A DNA stretch of 43,060 bases. Source: a virus. Taxonomy: Duplodnaviria; Caudoviricetes. Location of the stretch: positions 1-43,060 of IMG/VR virus record IMGVR_UViG_3300020365_000037; one strand, written 5' to 3'. This document shows positions 5,189-24,651 of this stretch, piece after piece. The notes beneath the pieces are model-generated. The model saw nothing but the letters and a program-made list of their open reading frames with translations, was not told the DNA's origin and did not search any database. A program made the translations under genes and the position numbers. Position 1 is the stretch's first letter; each line of letters opens with the position of its first letter.

Positions 5189-6913
5189 CTATCTACCTCT
5201 ATTCTGCTGAATTCTTCCAGACCTACCGCGACCTTTACCTCCACCTAAACCTGATACATTCAACTCATCAGACATAGCGAGAAACGGGAAATCATTTGTA
5301 GTTACGCCGTACACATCTGACCCCGGCAAACGCTTGCGGCGTAGCAAGCCTGTTGCGGCGGTGTCTGGTATCAAACGCCTATTATTAATTGGCTGAGATA
5401 TGTTTTGTGGTGCGGTCACGCCGCCTGTATTACCATCACCGCCTGTGTCTTCCGTAAACACTGAACGGTTCCGCGCTCTACTATCAGAAAGCTGTGGCAA
5501 GAACCGGTTTAAATCTACTCCAACATAATCTAGACCGCTAATACCAAGACCGATAGGCACACCCAACACTTCACCAACTGTGCCAAAGATACTCGCAGTG
5601 TCTTTGTCTAACTGGGCATTTCTTAAATTATTGGCTGTGCCACCAAAACCCAGTGCTGTGGAAAATGCGCCAGCCGGTGCAAAGAAACTAAACGCTTTAC
5701 CTAAATCACTTCCAAGGAAACCTTTACTACCGCCCTCTACCATAAAGGAACCGGTTTGTGGGTTGTAATCTACAATCTGTTGATTGCGAACTACGGCCTG
5801 ACCGCCTAATTTCTGGTCGGCTCTACCTATTTTAATATCAGGATTAGCAGAAAATATTTGAGACAGATTAACCATCTGCGCTCTAGGGTTCATGTTTTCT
5901 AGACCCGGTACGCCATATTGTTCGCCTAACTCTTTCATACCGGCTTTGTCTAGTAAACCAAACGCACCACTCTCGCTTGCCATCAAACCGCTATTGGTAG
6001 TGTCGAATGCTCTTTCCTTAGAAGGGTTTGATTCACCACTGCCCTGATAAAACTTTCCGGGTCTGTTACCAATGCTGGTGCCGGGTATCAAAGCCGGTTG
6101 AATACCGGTTACGTTGGTCGCATAATCACCGCGTCTGTCCAGACGTTCCTGAAGGTCTTGCTGACGCTGACTTCGCTCAAGGCTCTGTGAAGGTATCTCA
6201 CCAAACTCTACATCGCCGTTTACGCCGCTTTCAAACGCCTCGTTTGCAAAACCCTCGGCTTGTGCGCCAGCGGCACCGGACACGCCGCCTGTTAGAGTGC
6301 CTGATGTATTATCAAAAGACCGCTTGGCTATAGAAGGTGATGTGTACCCAGCCTGACCAATGACTTGTTGGGTCACGCCTTGAATAACAGAGCCAACACT
6401 ACTGCCTTGATTGGCGGTGCCGCCTTGTGCGGTAGCAAACGGGTCTGTGCCTGTGTTTAGGAATGTCGCAATCTGTCCTACAGATGCGCCTTGGTCAGCC
6501 ATACTCCGTGCATAATCTACTTCTGATGTTGTAGCGTTCTGTAATGCGTCATAGTTATTACCGGGTTGACCTGAACCAGAACCTGATGTCCAACCGATTG
6601 CCGCGTCTGCCGCTGTAGAACCTGTTTTGGAAACACCATCTACGCCAAAGGTAGTACCGCCAGACGAACCGCTATTGTCATCATTCCCGCTGTCACTAGA
6701 GCCGCCGGAACTAAAGTTATTGTTGCTACCGGTGCTAAACTCACCACTATCTCCAACACCATAGGGGTCATCAACACTAGAGCTACTACCACCACCGCCG
6801 CCGCCGTCACTACTAAAACAAAATATCTTGGATTGAATAGGGTCCAGCACATCAACACAGTCTGTCAATGTGATACCATCTCTATAAGGATTTATCTTTT
6901 GTAACATGCTCAA
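5189..6913 (-). CDS. Putative internal virion/ejection protein with leader and Gly/Ser-rich N-terminus
   Basis: 574 aa (start may be 6907); IFCFSSDGGGGGGSSSS motif after about 30 aa; overlaps the acyltransferase gene. Confidence 0.55.
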   Translation of the reverse strand: MSMLQKINPYRDGITLTDCVDVLDPIQSKIFCFSSDGGGGGGSSSSVDDPYGVGDSGEFSTGSNNNFSSGGSSDSGNDDNSGSSGGTTFGVDGVSKTGSTAADAAIGWTSGSGSGQPGNNYDALQNATTSEVDYARSMADQGASVGQIATFLNTGTDPFATAQGGTANQGSSVGSVIQGVTQQVIGQAGYTSPSIAKRSFDNTSGTLTGGVSGAAGAQAEGFANEAFESGVNGDVEFGEIPSQSLERSQRQQDLQERLDRRGDYATNVTGIQPALIPGTSIGNRPGKFYQGSGESNPSKERAFDTTNSGLMASESGAFGLLDKAGMKELGEQYGVPGLENMNPRAQMVNLSQIFSANPDIKIGRADQKLGGQAVVRNQQIVDYNPQTGSFMVEGGSKGFLGSDLGKAFSFFAPAGAFSTALGFGGTANNLRNAQLDKDTASIFGTVGEVLGVPIGLGISGLDYVGVDLNRFLPQLSDSRARNRSVFTEDTGGDGNTGGVTAPQNISQPINNRRLIPDTAATGLLRRKRLPGSDVYGVTTNDFPFLAMSDELNVSGLGGGKGRGRSGRIQQNRGR

Positions 6914-7352
6914 ACGCCATACCTAACTTACGTATAGAACCATCTGGATATCTTCGGACCCAGTAAGCCCTATCTGTATTGAAGCTGGGAGCAATCGGTG
7001 TAAGATACTCTCGTACCCATCTACCAAGTGTTCCAACATCTCCGTATGGCGCAATTAAATCCATTATGTATATCCGCTCTCCGCTCTTCCAGTCCGCTGG
7101 CTGTAGTTTGCGTGTACGGTTTAAAAATGAATTTTCAGCCTCGTAAGACAAAAAAGCCCAACTTATAAACCCAATGACCTTGCCGTCCCTGTAGAACAGT
7201 CGTGCTAGGTCCATCTCCATCGGCACAATAAACAGACGTTGTATGTCTTTTATGTACCAGTTTCTGTGCAATTCAGAGCGGAGACAAAGCTCTGTAATGT
7301 CACCTAATACTACATCATTTTTTATCTCTAGGCTAGACATAGACATAGACAT
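6882..7352 (-). CDS. hlyC: Toxin-activating lysine acyltransferase (HlyC/RtxC/CyaC family)
   Basis: Family motifs RSELHRNW (catalytic Ser/His), GFISWAFLS, LQPADWKSGERIYIMDLIAPYG (catalytic Asp). Confidence 0.88.
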   Translation of the reverse strand: MSMSMSSLEIKNDVVLGDITELCLRSELHRNWYIKDIQRLFIVPMEMDLARLFYRDGKVIGFISWAFLSYEAENSFLNRTRKLQPADWKSGERIYIMDLIAPYGDVGTLGRWVREYLTPIAPSFNTDRAYWVRRYPDGSIRKLGMAFEHVTKDKSL

Positions 7353-17890: not shown

Positions 17891-18064
17891 AGGGGGGACA
17901 GGAATTTTTTGGAGATTTTCGGCTCACATGGCCTAGCCACCCAACCCGCTCAGACCCCAGCACCATTAGGACGAGCTTTGATAGCAACAAATAAAATGGC
18001 ACTAGACCATGCTTACGCTGACGGGGATTACTGAGACAACCAGACTGGGTTATGTCTGGCCAAA

Positions 18065-18117
18065 GCTGATAGTGGGATGTGTATCCCGCCTGATGATTGC
18101 GAAAGCATGAAATCAGC
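18065..18117 (+). ncRNA. Hammerhead ribozyme, type III (HHR1)
   Basis: Stem III GCUGAU/AUCAGC; cleavage triplet AUA (after 18071); stem I GUGGGAU/AUCCCGC; core CUGAUGA; stem II U-UGC-GAAA-GCA-U; core GAAA. Confidence 0.85.
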
Positions 18118-18152
18118 AACAGACACAGACAGCATGGAACGGGAGTTACAAC

Positions 18153-19643
18153 ATGCATAATTTCAAACTTACAGCGCAACAGCGCACTGCACTGCTCACA
18201 GATATGCGGGCAAAAATGAAACAACAGCCCCACATTCTGGGCGAGAGTTTCAAACTACACTTGGCCAGCAAGGCTGAGATTATTGAGGCGGCTCAAAAGC
18301 TGGGCTTAGATGCGGCCAGTTATGGTACGCCAGCGGGTGCGACTGCACCGGCTATGCCAAAACCTAAACCAGCTATTCAAGCCCAGCCAATCGCAAAGGC
18401 TGAAGCTGTTTCAGAAATGGGTGACTGGGCTAAGTCTTCTGGTCTGGAAGAACAGGCAGATGGTATTCTGCAACAGCCTTATGCTGACCTTCGGGGCAGT
18501 ATTATGGAGATGCTGTCAGAAAAGACAGACCTTCAAGCTAAACTGGCCAGCCGTCCAGCGGATAACGTGGTGGCCATGCCTGTTGCATCTGCGCCAGCTA
18601 TTGAAGTGCCGGACGTCAATGAACATGTCCAGCATGTTGAAGAGACCGGCACAGTGAAGGCTGGCAAAATCTTTCGCGGTCTGAATGTAGACTGGGATAT
18701 CCCTGTCTATAATGATACCCGCGCACCGGCTGTTGACCCAAATTATGTGCCGGACCCAAAACTGGCTCATGCTTTTCTTTCGGTTGCCAGACGTGCGGTA
18801 CCTTTGCCTATGCTGTTCTTTGGGCCAGCCGGTACTGGTAAATCCTCTCTGCCCCGTTACTTTGCTGGACAGACAGGGCGGTCATTCTGGAACATCACTG
18901 TGTCTGATGACACAACAGTTGATGATTTCTTTGGCGGGTTCCAAGTGAGGGGCGGCACCACATACTGGTCTGATGGCCTACTGCTTAAAGCAGTCAGACA
19001 GCCCCGCGCTGTTATCCTCATTGATGAGGTAAGCAGGGCGCGGCCTGATGTACTGGTGGCCCTCAATGGTATCCTACAGGACCGCGAATATATCGTACCT
19101 CAGACTGGTGAAAGTATCGCAGTTGCTGAAGGCGTCCAGATTATGCTGGCAGACAACACCAACGGGCGGGGTGATGCATCTGGCCTGTATGCCGGTGCAA
19201 AGCAGATGGATAGCAGTTTGCTGTCTCGCTGTGCAATCAAACTGCACTTTGGCTACCCTTCAAAATCTCAGGAAAGTCGGGTATTGCGTCAGCGGTCAAA
19301 TGCACCAAAGGCGTTCTGTGACAGTCTGGTAGACTTTATGTCTATCTGCCGTAAAGCGCATGACAGGGGTGAGGCCCCAACCCTGACAGTTTCACTGAGG
19401 GAAAGTACCAACATTGCCCTGATGGTAATGGATGGCATGGACCCATCAGAGGTTGTGCATTGGGTGATTGGTAATGCGCTGGAAGCGGTAGACCAAGAAA
19501 CACTGACCCAGTTGTTCAACACCAATGTCAATCCTGATGAATGGCTGGCCCTGTCTAAGGGCGAGACATGGACCCCACCGGCTGATGAGGGTGATGCTGA
19601 AAAGCAGACTGACGGTGATGAGGATGAAATGCCTTTCAACTAA
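18153..19643 (+). CDS. MoxR/CbbQ/CobS-like AAA+ ATPase
   Basis: Walker A GPAGTGKS, Walker B ILIDEVSR, sensor ADNTNGRGD, MDSSLLSR, VSLRE. Confidence 0.9.
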   Translation: MHNFKLTAQQRTALLTDMRAKMKQQPHILGESFKLHLASKAEIIEAAQKLGLDAASYGTPAGATAPAMPKPKPAIQAQPIAKAEAVSEMGDWAKSSGLEEQADGILQQPYADLRGSIMEMLSEKTDLQAKLASRPADNVVAMPVASAPAIEVPDVNEHVQHVEETGTVKAGKIFRGLNVDWDIPVYNDTRAPAVDPNYVPDPKLAHAFLSVARRAVPLPMLFFGPAGTGKSSLPRYFAGQTGRSFWNITVSDDTTVDDFFGGFQVRGGTTYWSDGLLLKAVRQPRAVILIDEVSRARPDVLVALNGILQDREYIVPQTGESIAVAEGVQIMLADNTNGRGDASGLYAGAKQMDSSLLSRCAIKLHFGYPSKSQESRVLRQRSNAPKAFCDSLVDFMSICRKAHDRGEAPTLTVSLRESTNIALMVMDGMDPSEVVHWVIGNALEAVDQETLTQLFNTNVNPDEWLALSKGETWTPPADEGDAEKQTDGDEDEMPFN

Positions 19644-19649
19644 AAATCT

Positions 19650-19677
19650 GGCGGGGGCGGTTTTTACTGCCCCTGCC
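19650..19677 (+). other. GC-rich hairpin between AAA+ stop and HHR2
   Basis: GGCGGGGGCGGT/ACTGCCCCTGCC stem with no downstream U tract. Confidence 0.6.
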
Positions 19678-19680
19678 CAA

Positions 19681-19735
19681 CTCTGATAGTCGGATGTGTA
19701 TCCGGCCTGATGATTGGGAGACCATGAAATCAGAG
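19681..19735 (+). ncRNA. Hammerhead ribozyme, type III (HHR2)
   Basis: Stem III CUCUGAU/AUCAGAG; cleavage after AUA (19688); stem I GUCGGAU/AUCCGGC; CUGAUGA; stem II U-UGG-GAGA-CCA-U; GAAA. Compensatory changes relative to HHR1. Confidence 0.87.
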
Positions 19736-19763: not shown

Positions 19764-21755
19764 ATGTCTTATATCATTGCACAAGATTTAACCCACGCAG
19801 TAGACACTGCAATCCAGACAAGCCTGAGACACTTGCCCGACTTTGGTAAGGTTGAATGTCAGGTTACATGGCATGGTGGTGCAACGGCAGGGACCCACTG
19901 GTCTCTCAGTGATGAAGAGGGCGGCAAATACCTACGCAGTCGTATCAATATGCCTACTCTGCCAGCTACAGCATCTGTTACCAGATATGAGGCTGACACT
20001 ATGACAGGCTTCGCCATCCATGAGATGGGCCATAATATCTGCACAGATTTAAATGTCTGGAAACAGGCATGCCGTAAAGGCAAAGAATATGCCCAGATAC
20101 TAAATGCTTTTGAAGACCCGCGCATGGAACTGGACTTGGTGTCACGGGGCCGTTTCGCTGGTGCCAGAAAATATTTAGAATTACTGACAGAATACTGCGT
20201 GAGTTATTCTAAACAAAATGGCTGGCACCCTGCCAACCCACGGTCTTTGTCATTCAGCATCAACACACTGGCTTATGTAGAGATGTGCGGCTATGAAGTG
20301 CCATCTGCGGATGGCCTGTTGGATGAGGCTGGCCCATTGGCCCCTCACATTCGCATGTGGGCCGACAAGTTGAAGCTGTGCAAAACAACAGCGGATGCAT
20401 GGGCTTTGACACAAGAATTTGTGGACTACTACCCACAGCAACAGGAAGAGCCAGACGGTCAGCCAGATGTTGGTGAAGGTCAGGAAGGTGATCAGAATGA
20501 TGACCGGTCAGACACAGACAATCAGCCCATGTCTTCTGATGTTACTGAAACACCGGATGCTGACAGTGCAGAGGCTGATGCAGAGGCTGATGCAGATGCA
20601 GATGCTGATGCTGATGCAGAGGGTGATGCACAAGGTGCAACAGACACTGATGAGGCTGATGATGCTGAACAGCAGACGCCTGATGCCCAGTCACCTGTCA
20701 AAGGTTTCAGTCCTGATGCCGGTGATGGCAGTGTCATAGATGACATTAACCCTCTGGACCAGATGGATGCAGAACGTGATGTGCGGCCTATGGCTGACAA
20801 TATTACAGACCGCAATCCAGATGCCGCTGGTTTACAAGTGGTAGACACAGCGCGAAACTCTCAACTGTCTCTGGAAGGTGGTTCCATCAGGTCCGGTAAG
20901 ACACGGGCCAAGCAGATACGGGCAGACTTACCCCGCTCAGTAGGTGCGGCCAAGCAACGTATCACACGGCTGTTAACCAACCCAGACAGACGGGGCGAGT
21001 TGCGGAACCGTGACAAGGGACGTTTGGACAGGGGCCGTTTACACCGCCTGTCTAGCAATTCCAATAATGTCTTTAACAAGACATGGAAGCGGTCAGGTTA
21101 TCGGACAGCCGTTGGTATCATGGTGGACAATTCATCATCCATGCGCGGCTCAGACAACCATGATGCAGTCAAGCTGGCTTTTGTGTTGGGTGATGCTATG
21201 TCAGCGGCTAACATTAAGTTCTCTGTCTCATCATTCCCTATGGTTCAAGTTTCAGCCGCTCGTAACACTGACTTTAAAACTGAATATACACAAGGTCATG
21301 ATACGAATGGTATAGGCTGGAACCTAGCTGAAATGGGTATGGACCCCATATATCAGACTGGTTGCCGCATTAGACCGGACGCCAATGACAGCACAACACT
21401 CAAGCCGTTCAACGTGCCTTGGTCTAAGTCCGACTACAATGTGACTACCCTCTGGGGTAACACAGGTGGTGGTACACCTATGACTGAGGGTCTCATGACT
21501 ATGGCATCACAGATGCGCGACTTGGATGAAGATAAGAAAGTTATATTCATCCTGACAGACGGTGGTGCCGGTGGTCCAGACCTTGAGCAGATGGTCAAGC
21601 TGGCTAACCAGTGGGGCATCAAAGTTGTCGGACTTGAGGTGGCACATTACGGGTCACGTAAAGAGTTTGCCGACTGCTTGAACGCAAACATCTGGGGCCG
21701 CACTGTCCATGAAATTCTGATGGACTTGGACAAGCTGGCTGATGAACTTGCCTAA
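19764..21755 (+). CDS. CobT-like vWA-domain protein (N-terminal HExxH domain, acidic linker, C-terminal vWA)
   Basis: AIHEMGH and LNAFEDPRME; D/A/E-rich linker; MIDAS VDNSSSM, GGTP, ILTDG. Confidence 0.88.
   Translation: MSYIIAQDLTHAVDTAIQTSLRHLPDFGKVECQVTWHGGATAGTHWSLSDEEGGKYLRSRINMPTLPATASVTRYEADTMTGFAIHEMGHNICTDLNVWKQACRKGKEYAQILNAFEDPRMELDLVSRGRFAGARKYLELLTEYCVSYSKQNGWHPANPRSLSFSINTLAYVEMCGYEVPSADGLLDEAGPLAPHIRMWADKLKLCKTTADAWALTQEFVDYYPQQQEEPDGQPDVGEGQEGDQNDDRSDTDNQPMSSDVTETPDADSAEADAEADADADADADAEGDAQGATDTDEADDAEQQTPDAQSPVKGFSPDAGDGSVIDDINPLDQMDAERDVRPMADNITDRNPDAAGLQVVDTARNSQLSLEGGSIRSGKTRAKQIRADLPRSVGAAKQRITRLLTNPDRRGELRNRDKGRLDRGRLHRLSSNSNNVFNKTWKRSGYRTAVGIMVDNSSSMRGSDNHDAVKLAFVLGDAMSAANIKFSVSSFPMVQVSAARNTDFKTEYTQGHDTNGIGWNLAEMGMDPIYQTGCRIRPDANDSTTLKPFNVPWSKSDYNVTTLWGNTGGGTPMTEGLMTMASQMRDLDEDKKVIFILTDGGAGGPDLEQMVKLANQWGIKVVGLEVAHYGSRKEFADCLNANIWGRTVHEILMDLDKLADELA
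20573..20630 (+). repeat. Coding low-complexity repeat (GCTGAT/GCAGAT) encoding poly-AD/AE linker
   Basis: ADAEADADADADADAE tract within the vWA protein. Confidence 0.7.
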
Positions 21756-21764
21756 ACTTAACAC

Positions 21765-21790
21765 GGGGTCACCGCTTCGGTGGTGGCCCC
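21765..21790 (+). other. UUCG hairpin between vWA stop and HHR3
   Basis: GGGGTCACCGC-TTCG-GTGGTGGCCCC with no U tract. Confidence 0.7.
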
Positions 21791-21846
21791 TGCCACCTGA
21801 TGAGGCCCGATGGTCTGGGCCGAAACGCATAGCGTAGTGGTAGACC
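21791..21846 (+). ncRNA. Hammerhead ribozyme, type I with pseudoknot (HHR3)
   Basis: Stem I UGCCAC/GUGGUA; CUGAUGA; stem II GGCCC/GGGCC; GAAA; stem III CGC-AUA-GCG; cleavage after GUA (21836); loop II GGUC can pair with GACC at 21843-21846. Confidence 0.92.
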
Positions 21847-23450: not shown

Positions 23451-23484
23451 AGGGCGGTATCCTTCGGGGTGCCGCCCTTTTTTT
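23451..23484 (+). terminator. Intrinsic terminator ending the early operon
   Basis: AGGGCGGTATCC-TTCG-GGGTGCCGCCCT followed by a T run. Confidence 0.9.
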
Positions 23485-23488
23485 GTGC

Positions 23489-24228: not shown

Positions 24229-24264
24229 ACTACACAGTCTGTCACTCTGTACTGCGGAATATAC

Positions 24265-24559
24265 ATGATGACGATGATGACAATAAAACCGCACAAAATT
24301 ACCTGTCATACTTTTTTCTCTTGTTTGTTCTGTATTTGTTCTTATAATAAGACACTAACGCATTAAATCATAAATATATCGTCATCATCGTCATCATCTA
24401 CCATTTCATCTGGTAAACACTAGACATTACAGGCGGTTATGTGATGACAATAGACACCGGCTTATTGTCATCTTATCGTCATCAACCGTCATCAAAACAG
24501 ACTGTGTACACCGGATATGATGACAAATGATGACGATGGATGACGGTTGATGACGATAA
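24265..24559. repeat. GATGAC iteron cluster with inverted repeats; putative replication origin
   Basis: Perfect 17-bp IR (24265-24281 / 24381-24397) around an AT-rich spacer; perfect 21-bp IR (24473-24493 / 24539-24559); many GATGAC/GTCATC copies; non-coding. Confidence 0.7.
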
Positions 24560-24651
24560 AAAACGGATTAATTTATTTCAAAGGGGTTGCGTTCTAGTAT
24601 AACACCATTAAAATGACGATAGAATAATAGTGACAGAAGGGACAAAGACAG

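What the first reader, a model, noticed from the sequence alone, without database searches (positions are those of the whole stretch)
18065..19735. HHR1 and HHR2 covary and share a non-canonical U-U at the base of stem II
Seen: the two type III copies differ by compensatory changes (stem I G-C to C-G; stem II C-G to G-C; stem III ends GC/GC versus CUC/GAG) and a GAAA/GAGA GNRA loop swap, while the cores and the GUGU loop are identical. Both have U10.1-U11.1 where the consensus has a purine-pyrimidine pair, usually G-C, leaving a 3-bp stem II. Inference: structure is under selection, and this may be a variant subclass that strict pattern searches miss, possibly with tuned cleavage rate.
Basis: partly seen in the sequence, partly recalled or inferred. 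Interest (0 to 1): 0.8.

Follow-up and report, generated by a model that had tools for sequence, protein, structure and literature searches.

The report
U-U hammerhead ribozymes punctuating phage operon
Two hammerhead RNA motifs flank one gene of an uncultured phage and likely cut its long transcript into single-gene messages; their odd U-U mismatch was already reported in another phage, but it is common among phage hammerheads and mostly comes with an A at the cut site, which would point to a compensating change in the active site.

Summary
HHR1 (18065-18117) and HHR2 (19681-19735) are complete type III hammerhead motifs with U10.1/U11.1, a 3-bp stem II and AUA at the cut site. A third, canonical type I motif (21790-21843) was missed. 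The three bracket the cobS-like and cobT-like genes, each after a hairpin and before a ribosome-binding site.

The U-U variant is not new: Perreault 2011 (PMC3088659) reported it, lists phage PaP3 among active variants, and described such gene-flanking arrays. PaP3's motif fits my model at 71.8 bits.

Not found in print: U-U is common in phages (58 of 115 distinct motifs) and is tied to A17 (79 of 96, against 18 of 111 for G-C). Positions 17 and 11.1 both stack on the general base G12. A tree-based test pointed the same way but was not significant. Cleavage and rate tuning were not measured. The scan noted hammerhead arrays before on other DNA, but not this coupling.

The parts
17969..18022 (+). 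Conserved intergenic block, promoter-like (TTGATA at 17978-17983); promoter role inferred only
   Evidence: Nearly invariant in the window and 4 related loci; the sigma-70 scan did not flag it, and its hit count (11 vs 8.6 shuffled) is not above chance
18040..18059 (+). Small hairpin just upstream of HHR1
   Evidence: Predicted; conserved in relatives; the 60-nt window is not more stable than shuffles (z 0.19)
18065..18117 (+). HHR1: type III hammerhead motif, U10.1/U11.1, 3-bp stem II, AUA; predicted cut after 18071
   Evidence: model R1 73.9 bits (an identical copy was in the training set)
18119..18152 (+). ACAGAC-repeat linker plus GGAG ribosome-binding site
   Evidence: The 12-mer repeat occurs 4 times in the window, all directly behind the three ribozymes; start context
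18153..19643 (+). MoxR/CobS-like AAA+ ATPase gene (496 aa)
   Evidence: PF07728 E 2e-23; phrog_249 E 2e-45; far below the TIGR01650 CobS cut-off
19650..19677 (+). Strong GC-rich hairpin, no U-tract, ending 3 nt before HHR2
   Evidence: z -5.9 for the 60-nt window; fold
19681..19735 (+). HHR2: type III hammerhead motif, U10.1/U11.1, 3-bp stem II, AUA; predicted cut after 19688
   Evidence: the active fold is the MFE in context; 66.2 bits; identical copy in training set
19764..21755 (+). CobT-like gene (663 aa); vWA-type partner of the ATPase by recall
   Evidence: phrog_1576, phrog_5298; weak TIGR01651 E 7e-4
21765..21790 (+). GC-rich UUCG hairpin directly before HHR3
   Evidence: (z -2.0)
21790..21846 (+). 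HHR3: type I hammerhead motif, canonical G10.1-C11.1, GUA; predicted cut after 21836; possible pseudoknot 21812-21816 with 21842-21846 (read by eye)
   Evidence: weak RF00008 match of 20.1 bits; present in L021, L022, L023, L025
21879..23446 (+). Run of small ORFs of unknown function after HHR3
23451..23488 (+). Intrinsic-terminator-like site that likely ends the transcription unit
   Evidence: 12-pair stem plus T-run

Best explanation
HHR1 and HHR2 are type III hammerhead motifs of a widespread phage subfamily that carries U10.1/U11.1 together with A17, and with HHR3 they likely self-cleave during transcription and cut one phage transcript into single-gene mRNAs. Inferred: each upstream product ends in a hairpin, and each downstream product starts at a 5'-OH on the stem I hairpin, 42-81 nt before its start codon, which would set the stability and translation of each message separately. 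Shown: the motifs, family-wide covariation, the hairpin-ribozyme-RBS layout, and the association of U-U with A17. Inferred: U-U removes the G10.1 N7 metal ligand and weakens the pair that caps the stack around the general base G12, and a purine at 17, on the other face of G12, most likely compensates. Activity rests on the tested PaP3 homolog, not on an assay of these RNAs.
For: Core and three stems are complete, with covariation in 12 of 15 pairs and 0 of 500 shuffles as high. Stem II and N17 were not in the pattern, yet 142 of 148 matches fold as type III. The PaP3 motif at the genome end has the same architecture and scores 71.8 bits with a model not trained on it; Fig. S6 of PMC3088659 lists PaP3 among active core variants. 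Tandem arrays there cleaved in vitro, and one in E. coli. Among 53 viral U-U motifs, 43 have an RBS plus start codon within 70 nt downstream (7.5 expected on shuffles) and 43 have an upstream hairpin at z<-2 (5 of 53 downstream); only 6 of 53 hairpins are followed by a U-tract. A17 counts, U-U versus G-C: 51 of 58 vs 7 of 25 in viral and 7 of 8 vs 11 of 100 in genome contigs; 79 of 96 vs 18 of 111 with loop I unconstrained, type I 4 of 5 vs 5 of 20. After the 13 helix pairs, 17-11.1 and 17-10.1 are the top MI-APC couplings. In 43 disjoint close cross-class pairs, 27 go the expected way and 1 the reverse. PMC6961537 places G12 between N17 and N11.1 and makes G10.1 N7 the metal pocket, with 7-deaza costing only about 30-fold; PMC11300833 shows N17 stacked on G12.
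Against: No cleavage assay, and no RNA-end evidence for this phage. The strict tree test gave only 11 independent pairs (4.9 same way, 0.3 opposite, 5.8 no difference; median p 0.125), so shared descent is not excluded; one of nine clustering tests was also not significant (p 0.13). The coupling is not absolute: pooled, 17 of 130 U-U motifs lack A17 and 25 of 191 G-C motifs have it. A17 triplets are intrinsically slower than C17 in purified RNA (PMC1636495), so direct compensation is not obvious. Nearest-neighbour energies put a core-stem III mispairing about level with the active fold (HHR1 -17.8 vs -17.2, HHR2 -17.9 vs -17.6 kcal/mol), and it is the predicted minimum for HHR1 in context. Two of 5 related loci have G-U at HHR1.
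Confidence: 0.72

Rival explanations
1. The ribozymes process the transcript as above, but U-U goes with A17 because of folding, not chemistry. C17 lets the NUH triplet pair with the CUGAU core during transcription, and a ribozyme with a weak 3-bp stem II escapes that trap poorly, so C17 is purged.
For: The trap model is in PMC1636495. In silico, trap pairing in partial transcripts is 0.63-0.71 with C17 versus 0.20-0.21 with A17 in viral motifs, and the A-over-C gain in stem III formation is larger in a U-U background (0.10-0.17 vs 0.035-0.10). C17 is the depleted letter (6 of 130).
Against: The interaction term is small, and in the 94 genome G-C motifs it nearly vanishes (0.053 vs 0.044). U17 folds best in silico yet is rare (11 of 130). 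The A/C-A mismatch class never has A17 (0 of 10) although its stem II is also short.
Confidence: 0.3
2. The coupling is historical: one U-U/A17 founder cassette spread among phages by copying and recombination, and the two letters travel together with no functional link.
For: U-U motifs are closer to each other (median 4 differences) than to G-C motifs (median 8), and the tree test is not significant. HHR1 and HHR2 themselves look like duplicates, sharing the linker repeat.
Against: The association holds in viral and bacterial-genome sets, in type I and type III, and after most clusterings. Neighbouring stem pairs have turned over freely while the link persists. Close cross-class pairs go 27 to 1.
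Confidence: 0.2
3. U-U/A17 ribozymes are selected as slow or Mg2+-sensitive cutters that give partial or conditional processing.
For: Both changes individually lower activity in published work. A competing fold is near-isoenergetic. Single phages mix U-U, G-C and insertion classes.
Against: AUA and GUA cleave as well as or better than GUC during transcription. G-U replaces U-U at the same site in close relatives. No rate data were found.
Confidence: 0.25
4. The HHR1-HHR2 fragment re-forms a hammerhead across its own ends and ligates into a circular cobS-like mRNA.
For: The inner five pairs of stem III are identical in HHR1 and HHR2, so the ends are compatible.
Against: Neighbouring ribozymes in L002-type phages have incompatible stems III, and HHR2-HHR3 are of different types. 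The 3' product is predicted to bury its stem III strand with its own core. Perreault 2011 looked for circles and saw none.
Confidence: 0.05
5. The motifs are inactive relics or chance look-alikes.
For: No Rfam hit and no assay.
Against: Chance expectation 0.06, strong covariation, fixed gene context, and an active homolog in PaP3.
Confidence: 0.03

Closest known systems
PaP3 phage type III hammerhead with U10.1-U11.1 (Perreault et al. 2011, PMC3088659, Figs 5 and S6; AY078382 minus strand 45418-45468)
   Same: Type III, 7-bp stem I with the GUGU-centred loop, CUGAUGA/GAAA core, U-U, 3-bp stem II, A17, directly ahead of an ATG; 71.8 bits with my model.
   Different: GUA rather than AUA and different stems. 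The figure legend there calls such core variants rare; here U-U is about half of a phage sample, and I found no mention of the A17 link in the parts I could read.
Clustered hammerheads flanking single genes in prophages (PMC3088659 Fig. 3; reviewed in PMC6765202)
   Same: Several co-oriented ribozymes of mixed type between consecutive genes; the same proposed processing role.
   Different: Flanked genes here are a CobS-like/CobT-like pair. Each ribozyme has an upstream hairpin and an ACAGAC-repeat linker. Not tested in vitro or in vivo.
Hammerhead_3, Rfam RF00008 (clan CL00010)
   Same: Topology, core and loop-loop motif.
   Different: HHR1/2 give no hit at E<=5; U-U relatives score about 30-32 bits against a gathering score of 48.5.
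Viroid and satellite type III hammerheads with AUA/GUA triplets (ELVd+; PMC1636495, PMC2632901)
   Same: 7/4 stem I geometry, AUA triplet, UNmYN and RNnA loops.
   Different: They have a 4-bp helix II and sit in RNA replicons, not in a DNA phage operon.

Membership tests
Hammerhead ribozyme, type III | Core C3-U4-G5-A6-N7-G8-A9 and G12-A13-A14 with the A15.1-U16.1 pair | tested here: met
   Both copies
Hammerhead ribozyme, type III | Three-way junction; stems I and II closed, stem III open | tested here: met
   covariation
Hammerhead ribozyme, type III | NUH cleavage triplet | tested here: met
   AUA in both; AUA occurs in natural active hammerheads
Hammerhead ribozyme, type III | Loop 1 UNmYN / loop 2 RNnA tertiary motif | tested here: met
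   UGUGUA with GAAA or GAGA match the motif by sequence; the contact itself was not tested
Hammerhead ribozyme, type III | Quasi-conserved R10.1-Y11.1 (G-C) pair | tested here: not met
   U/U in both; a published, tolerated exception rather than a strict requirement
Hammerhead ribozyme, type III | Site-specific self-cleavage giving 2',3'-cyclic phosphate and 5'-OH | not testable with these tools
   Only contigs were available; homolog activity is from PMC3088659
Rfam RF00008 as curated | Score at or above 48.5 bits | tested here: not met
   9 of 10 canonical G-C family members also fall short
PaP3-type U10.1-U11.1 variant | U-U at the base of a 3-bp stem II in a type III frame | tested here: met
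Gene-flanking phage hammerhead arrays | Two or more co-oriented intergenic ribozymes around single genes in a phage | tested here: met
   Three motifs around two genes; capsid, portal, terminase and integrase genes in the window
Gene-flanking phage hammerhead arrays | Processing of the polycistronic RNA in vivo | tested here: inconclusive
   One RNA run holds part of the region, as contigs without ends

The most novel reading that the evidence does not exclude
U10.1-U11.1 plus A17 is a second, co-evolved active-site solution of the hammerhead ribozyme, used by about half of phage type III motifs of this geometry. It drops the G10.1 N7 metal ligand and rebuilds the stack around the general base G12 with a purine at the cleavage site. 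In the same family, stem III is built so that the freed 3' product refolds onto its own core, ejecting the upstream RNA and blocking re-ligation.
Probability: 0.45. Interest if true: 0.68.

Novelty: new member of a known kind. Interest (0 to 1): 0.45.

Why it matters
The finding as written repeats two results from 2011: the U-U variant and gene-flanking arrays. What is added is testable. The hammerhead is the best-studied small ribozyme, and G10.1 is the nucleobase ligand of its catalytic metal site. A large natural class without G10.1, statistically tied to the cleavage-site base across the G12 stack, gives a ready double-mutant cycle for asking how much that metal site matters and what can replace it. 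It also shows that Rfam-based counts miss much of the phage hammerhead population, and it supplies compact natural hairpin-ribozyme-RBS cassettes for the open question of what bacterial and phage ribozymes do.

Tried and rejected
Rfam found nothing at gathering level in the window and no ribozyme at E<=5 over HHR1/2. My first viral scan had one N too many and returned 0; it says nothing. blastn of HHR1 against phage records gave only 10 short chance-level matches. tblastn of the ATPase, polymerase and integrase gave no close cultured relative (best about 34%, 27%, 30%), so the host is unassigned. RNA evidence: 2 of 4 listed runs hold part of the stretch; both are contigs, no start or end pile-ups were listed, and 97 pieces were not shown, so no conclusion is drawn. 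Searching Dataset S1 of PMC3088659 for core strings gave 0, but only 300 of 1018 pages are readable and the type III alignment starts at page 1009, so the blank is uninformative. Upstream hairpins as terminators: rejected for most (U-tract in 6 of 53). Model R1 found no further copy in the window. The L002 ATPase is only remotely like the window's (E 0.004), so those operons are analogous, not close. Passages of PMC9901934, PMC13481778, PMC4209133, PMC10085705 and bioRxiv 10.1101/2024.05.16.594327 held nothing on U-U. Rows dropped before counts: 34 of 115, 6 of 148, 8 of 141, 16 of 132 and 5 of 134.

Full report
Observation. A loose core pattern matches only these 2 sites, against 0.06 expected. 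Both have AUA at the cut site. Loop I reads better as a UGUGUA hexaloop, the commonest loop 1 form in PMC2632901 (passages). A third hammerhead, type I with a normal G-C pair, lies at 21790-21843.

Context. The window is a phage record of 43 kb with capsid, portal, terminase, polymerase A, ribonucleotide reductase and integrase genes. The order on the + strand is: conserved promoter-like block, HHR1, CobS-like AAA+ gene, HHR2, CobT-like gene, HHR3, small ORFs, terminator-like site. Each ribozyme follows a hairpin and precedes an ACAGAC repeat, an RBS and a start codon 81, 75 and 42 nt after the predicted cut. In 5 related loci HHR2 keeps U-U in all 5; HHR1 has U-U in 3 and G-U in 2.

The family. 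A scan fixing loop I and the core but not stem II or N17 returned 147 loci from 22 of 64 parts of the viral collection. Of 148 matches, 142 fold as type III. Among 115 distinct motifs, U-U has 58, G-C 27, an insertion class with a longer stem II 20, A-A 8, C-A 1 and C-U 1. In bacterial genomes (14 of 64 parts), 133 of 141 matches pass; of 117 distinct motifs G-C has 100 and U-U 8. An alignment of 61 U-U motifs shows both-side changes in 12 of 15 pairs, with 0 of 500 shuffles as high and slid controls near zero. The filter required pairing, but it removed few rows. Of 53 viral U-U motifs, 43 have an RBS and start downstream (7.5 on shuffles) and 43 have a stable upstream hairpin; few of these hairpins look like terminators (6 of 53).

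Prior knowledge. PMC3088659 (sections 6, 8 and the first part of 11, passages, the text of Fig. [quoted passage not shown] 27, which I did not read), and that hammerheads often flank single prophage genes and cleave in vitro and in E. coli. PaP3 is listed among active variants. The PaP3 genome end holds a motif of exactly this subfamily, scoring 71.8 bits with my model. That this is the RNA they tested is inferred from the primer note and the figure text. PMC6765202 (passages) treats the processing role as suggested but unproven. The variant and the layout are therefore known.

What is added. U-U goes with A at position 17. Counts for U-U versus G-C: 51 of 58 vs 7 of 25 (p 1e-7) in viral and 7 of 8 vs 11 of 100 (p 8e-6) in genome contigs; 8 of 9 clustering variants stayed below p 0.01 and one gave p 0.13. 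Two further scans with loop I free but G16.2 fixed (partly overlapping contigs) gave 79 of 96 vs 18 of 111; for type III motifs outside the first pattern 48 of 57 vs 7 of 71; for type I 4 of 5 vs 5 of 20. In a weighted MI-APC scan of 193 motifs, 17-11.1 and 17-10.1 rank directly after the 13 helix pairs. Against this, a tree on 48 columns gave only 11 supported independent pairs and a median p of 0.125; disjoint close cross-class pairs went 27 to 1, with 15 ties of 43. Ten literature searches found no statement of this link, but the library lacks most subscription journals, and the type III alignment and one .doc supplement of PMC3088659 were unreadable.

Mechanism. PMC6961537 (abstract, sections 5 and 7, passages) puts the general base G12 between N17 and N11.1, capped by the 10.1-11.1 pair, with G10.1 N7 as a metal ligand whose loss costs about 30-fold. 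PMC11300833 (passages) shows N17 stacked on G12. The coupled positions are therefore the two faces of one stack, which suggests compensation (inference). The main rival is folding: PMC1636495 (passages and Discussion) describes a C17-dependent trap with the CUGAU core. My in-silico grid reproduces that trap (0.63-0.71 vs 0.20-0.21) with a modest extra cost in U-U backgrounds. Shared descent remains possible. Rate tuning is untested.

A second feature. The 3' strand of stem III carries CAG in either of two registers in 71 of 87 viral motifs (40 of 117 in genomes). After cleavage, the core is predicted to pair with it in 49 of 53 viral U-U motifs, against 6 of 53 when the strand is complemented. 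For HHR1 and HHR2 the cleaved product folds this way. This would speed product release and oppose re-ligation or circles, but it also competes with the active fold before cleavage. It is a prediction only, and common ancestry of stem III could explain it.

Detection. Rfam gives no hit for HHR1/2. In a hand-picked test, 4 of 10 U-U and 8 of 10 G-C motifs hit RF00008, with 0 and 1 at the gathering score.

Earlier scan notes describe similar arrays with upstream hairpins, and type III motifs in small-genome bacteria, on other DNA; none mentions U-U or A17, and none covers this genome.

Verdict. These are real, very likely active ribozymes of a known variant in a known layout: a new member of a known kind. 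Interest is 0.45, carried by the prevalence and the testable U-U/A17 coupling rather than by the original claim. Hammerhead numbering, the protective role of 5'-OH hairpin ends, the vWA label and the grouping of phyla under Patescibacteria are recalled, not from a call.

Noticed in passing
window 21790-21846: Third hammerhead (type I, canonical G-C, GUA) with a possible 5-bp pseudoknot between loop II and the 3' tail; conserved in 4 related loci that reach it.
   Followed up: partly
L288-L418 (genome scan): This type III geometry in bacterial genomes is dominated by Patescibacteria-lineage records: 86 of 131 loci by NCBI phylum, 103 of 131 by my count of titles, mostly canonical G-C. A search for hammerhead plus Patescibacteria found no relevant paper. 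Gene context not examined.
   Followed up: partly
L151, L164, L165, L177, L187, L193, L295, L297, L313 and others: Further core classes in the same family: A/C10.1 facing A11.1 over a G-C pair with a 2-3 bp stem II (0 of 10 with A17), and a one-base insertion after A9 with a longer stem II (20 distinct, 19 with C17).
   Followed up: partly
window 18090-18094 with 18112-18116; 19707-19711 with 19729-19733: The core CUGAU is complementary to the 3' strand of stem III, so the cleaved product is predicted to refold into one long hairpin; family-wide enrichment of CAG in that strand.
   Followed up: partly
window 18119, 19738, 21848, 21854; also 28229 (minus) and 31717: ACAGAC repeats sit between each ribozyme and its RBS; a shorter form also precedes two other genes, and AGACA/TGTCT is the commonest 5-mer of the whole window (319). 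Function unexplained.
   Followed up: no
L002:1369-4982, L006:1643-5012: Unrelated AT-rich phages carry up to four such ribozymes between an AAA ATPase gene, an unknown gene and a gene with a HEXXH and DTSGS motif, so ribozyme-punctuated ATPase modules recur.
   Followed up: partly
L023:4800-4915: One relative has a ~90-nt insertion with its own hairpin between the small upstream hairpin and HHR1, keeping a hairpin next to the ribozyme.
   Followed up: no
L140 (PaP3) minus strand near 44106: A second hammerhead-like core with canonical stem II in the PaP3 early region.
   Followed up: no
window 6882-7352 (minus): HlyC-family acyltransferase match (PF02794, E 1e-23) among the virion genes.
   Followed up: no
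window 24260-24560: Intergenic AT-rich stretch with repeated GATGAC/GTCATC units in both orientations, next to the primase region; origin-like by appearance only.
   Followed up: no
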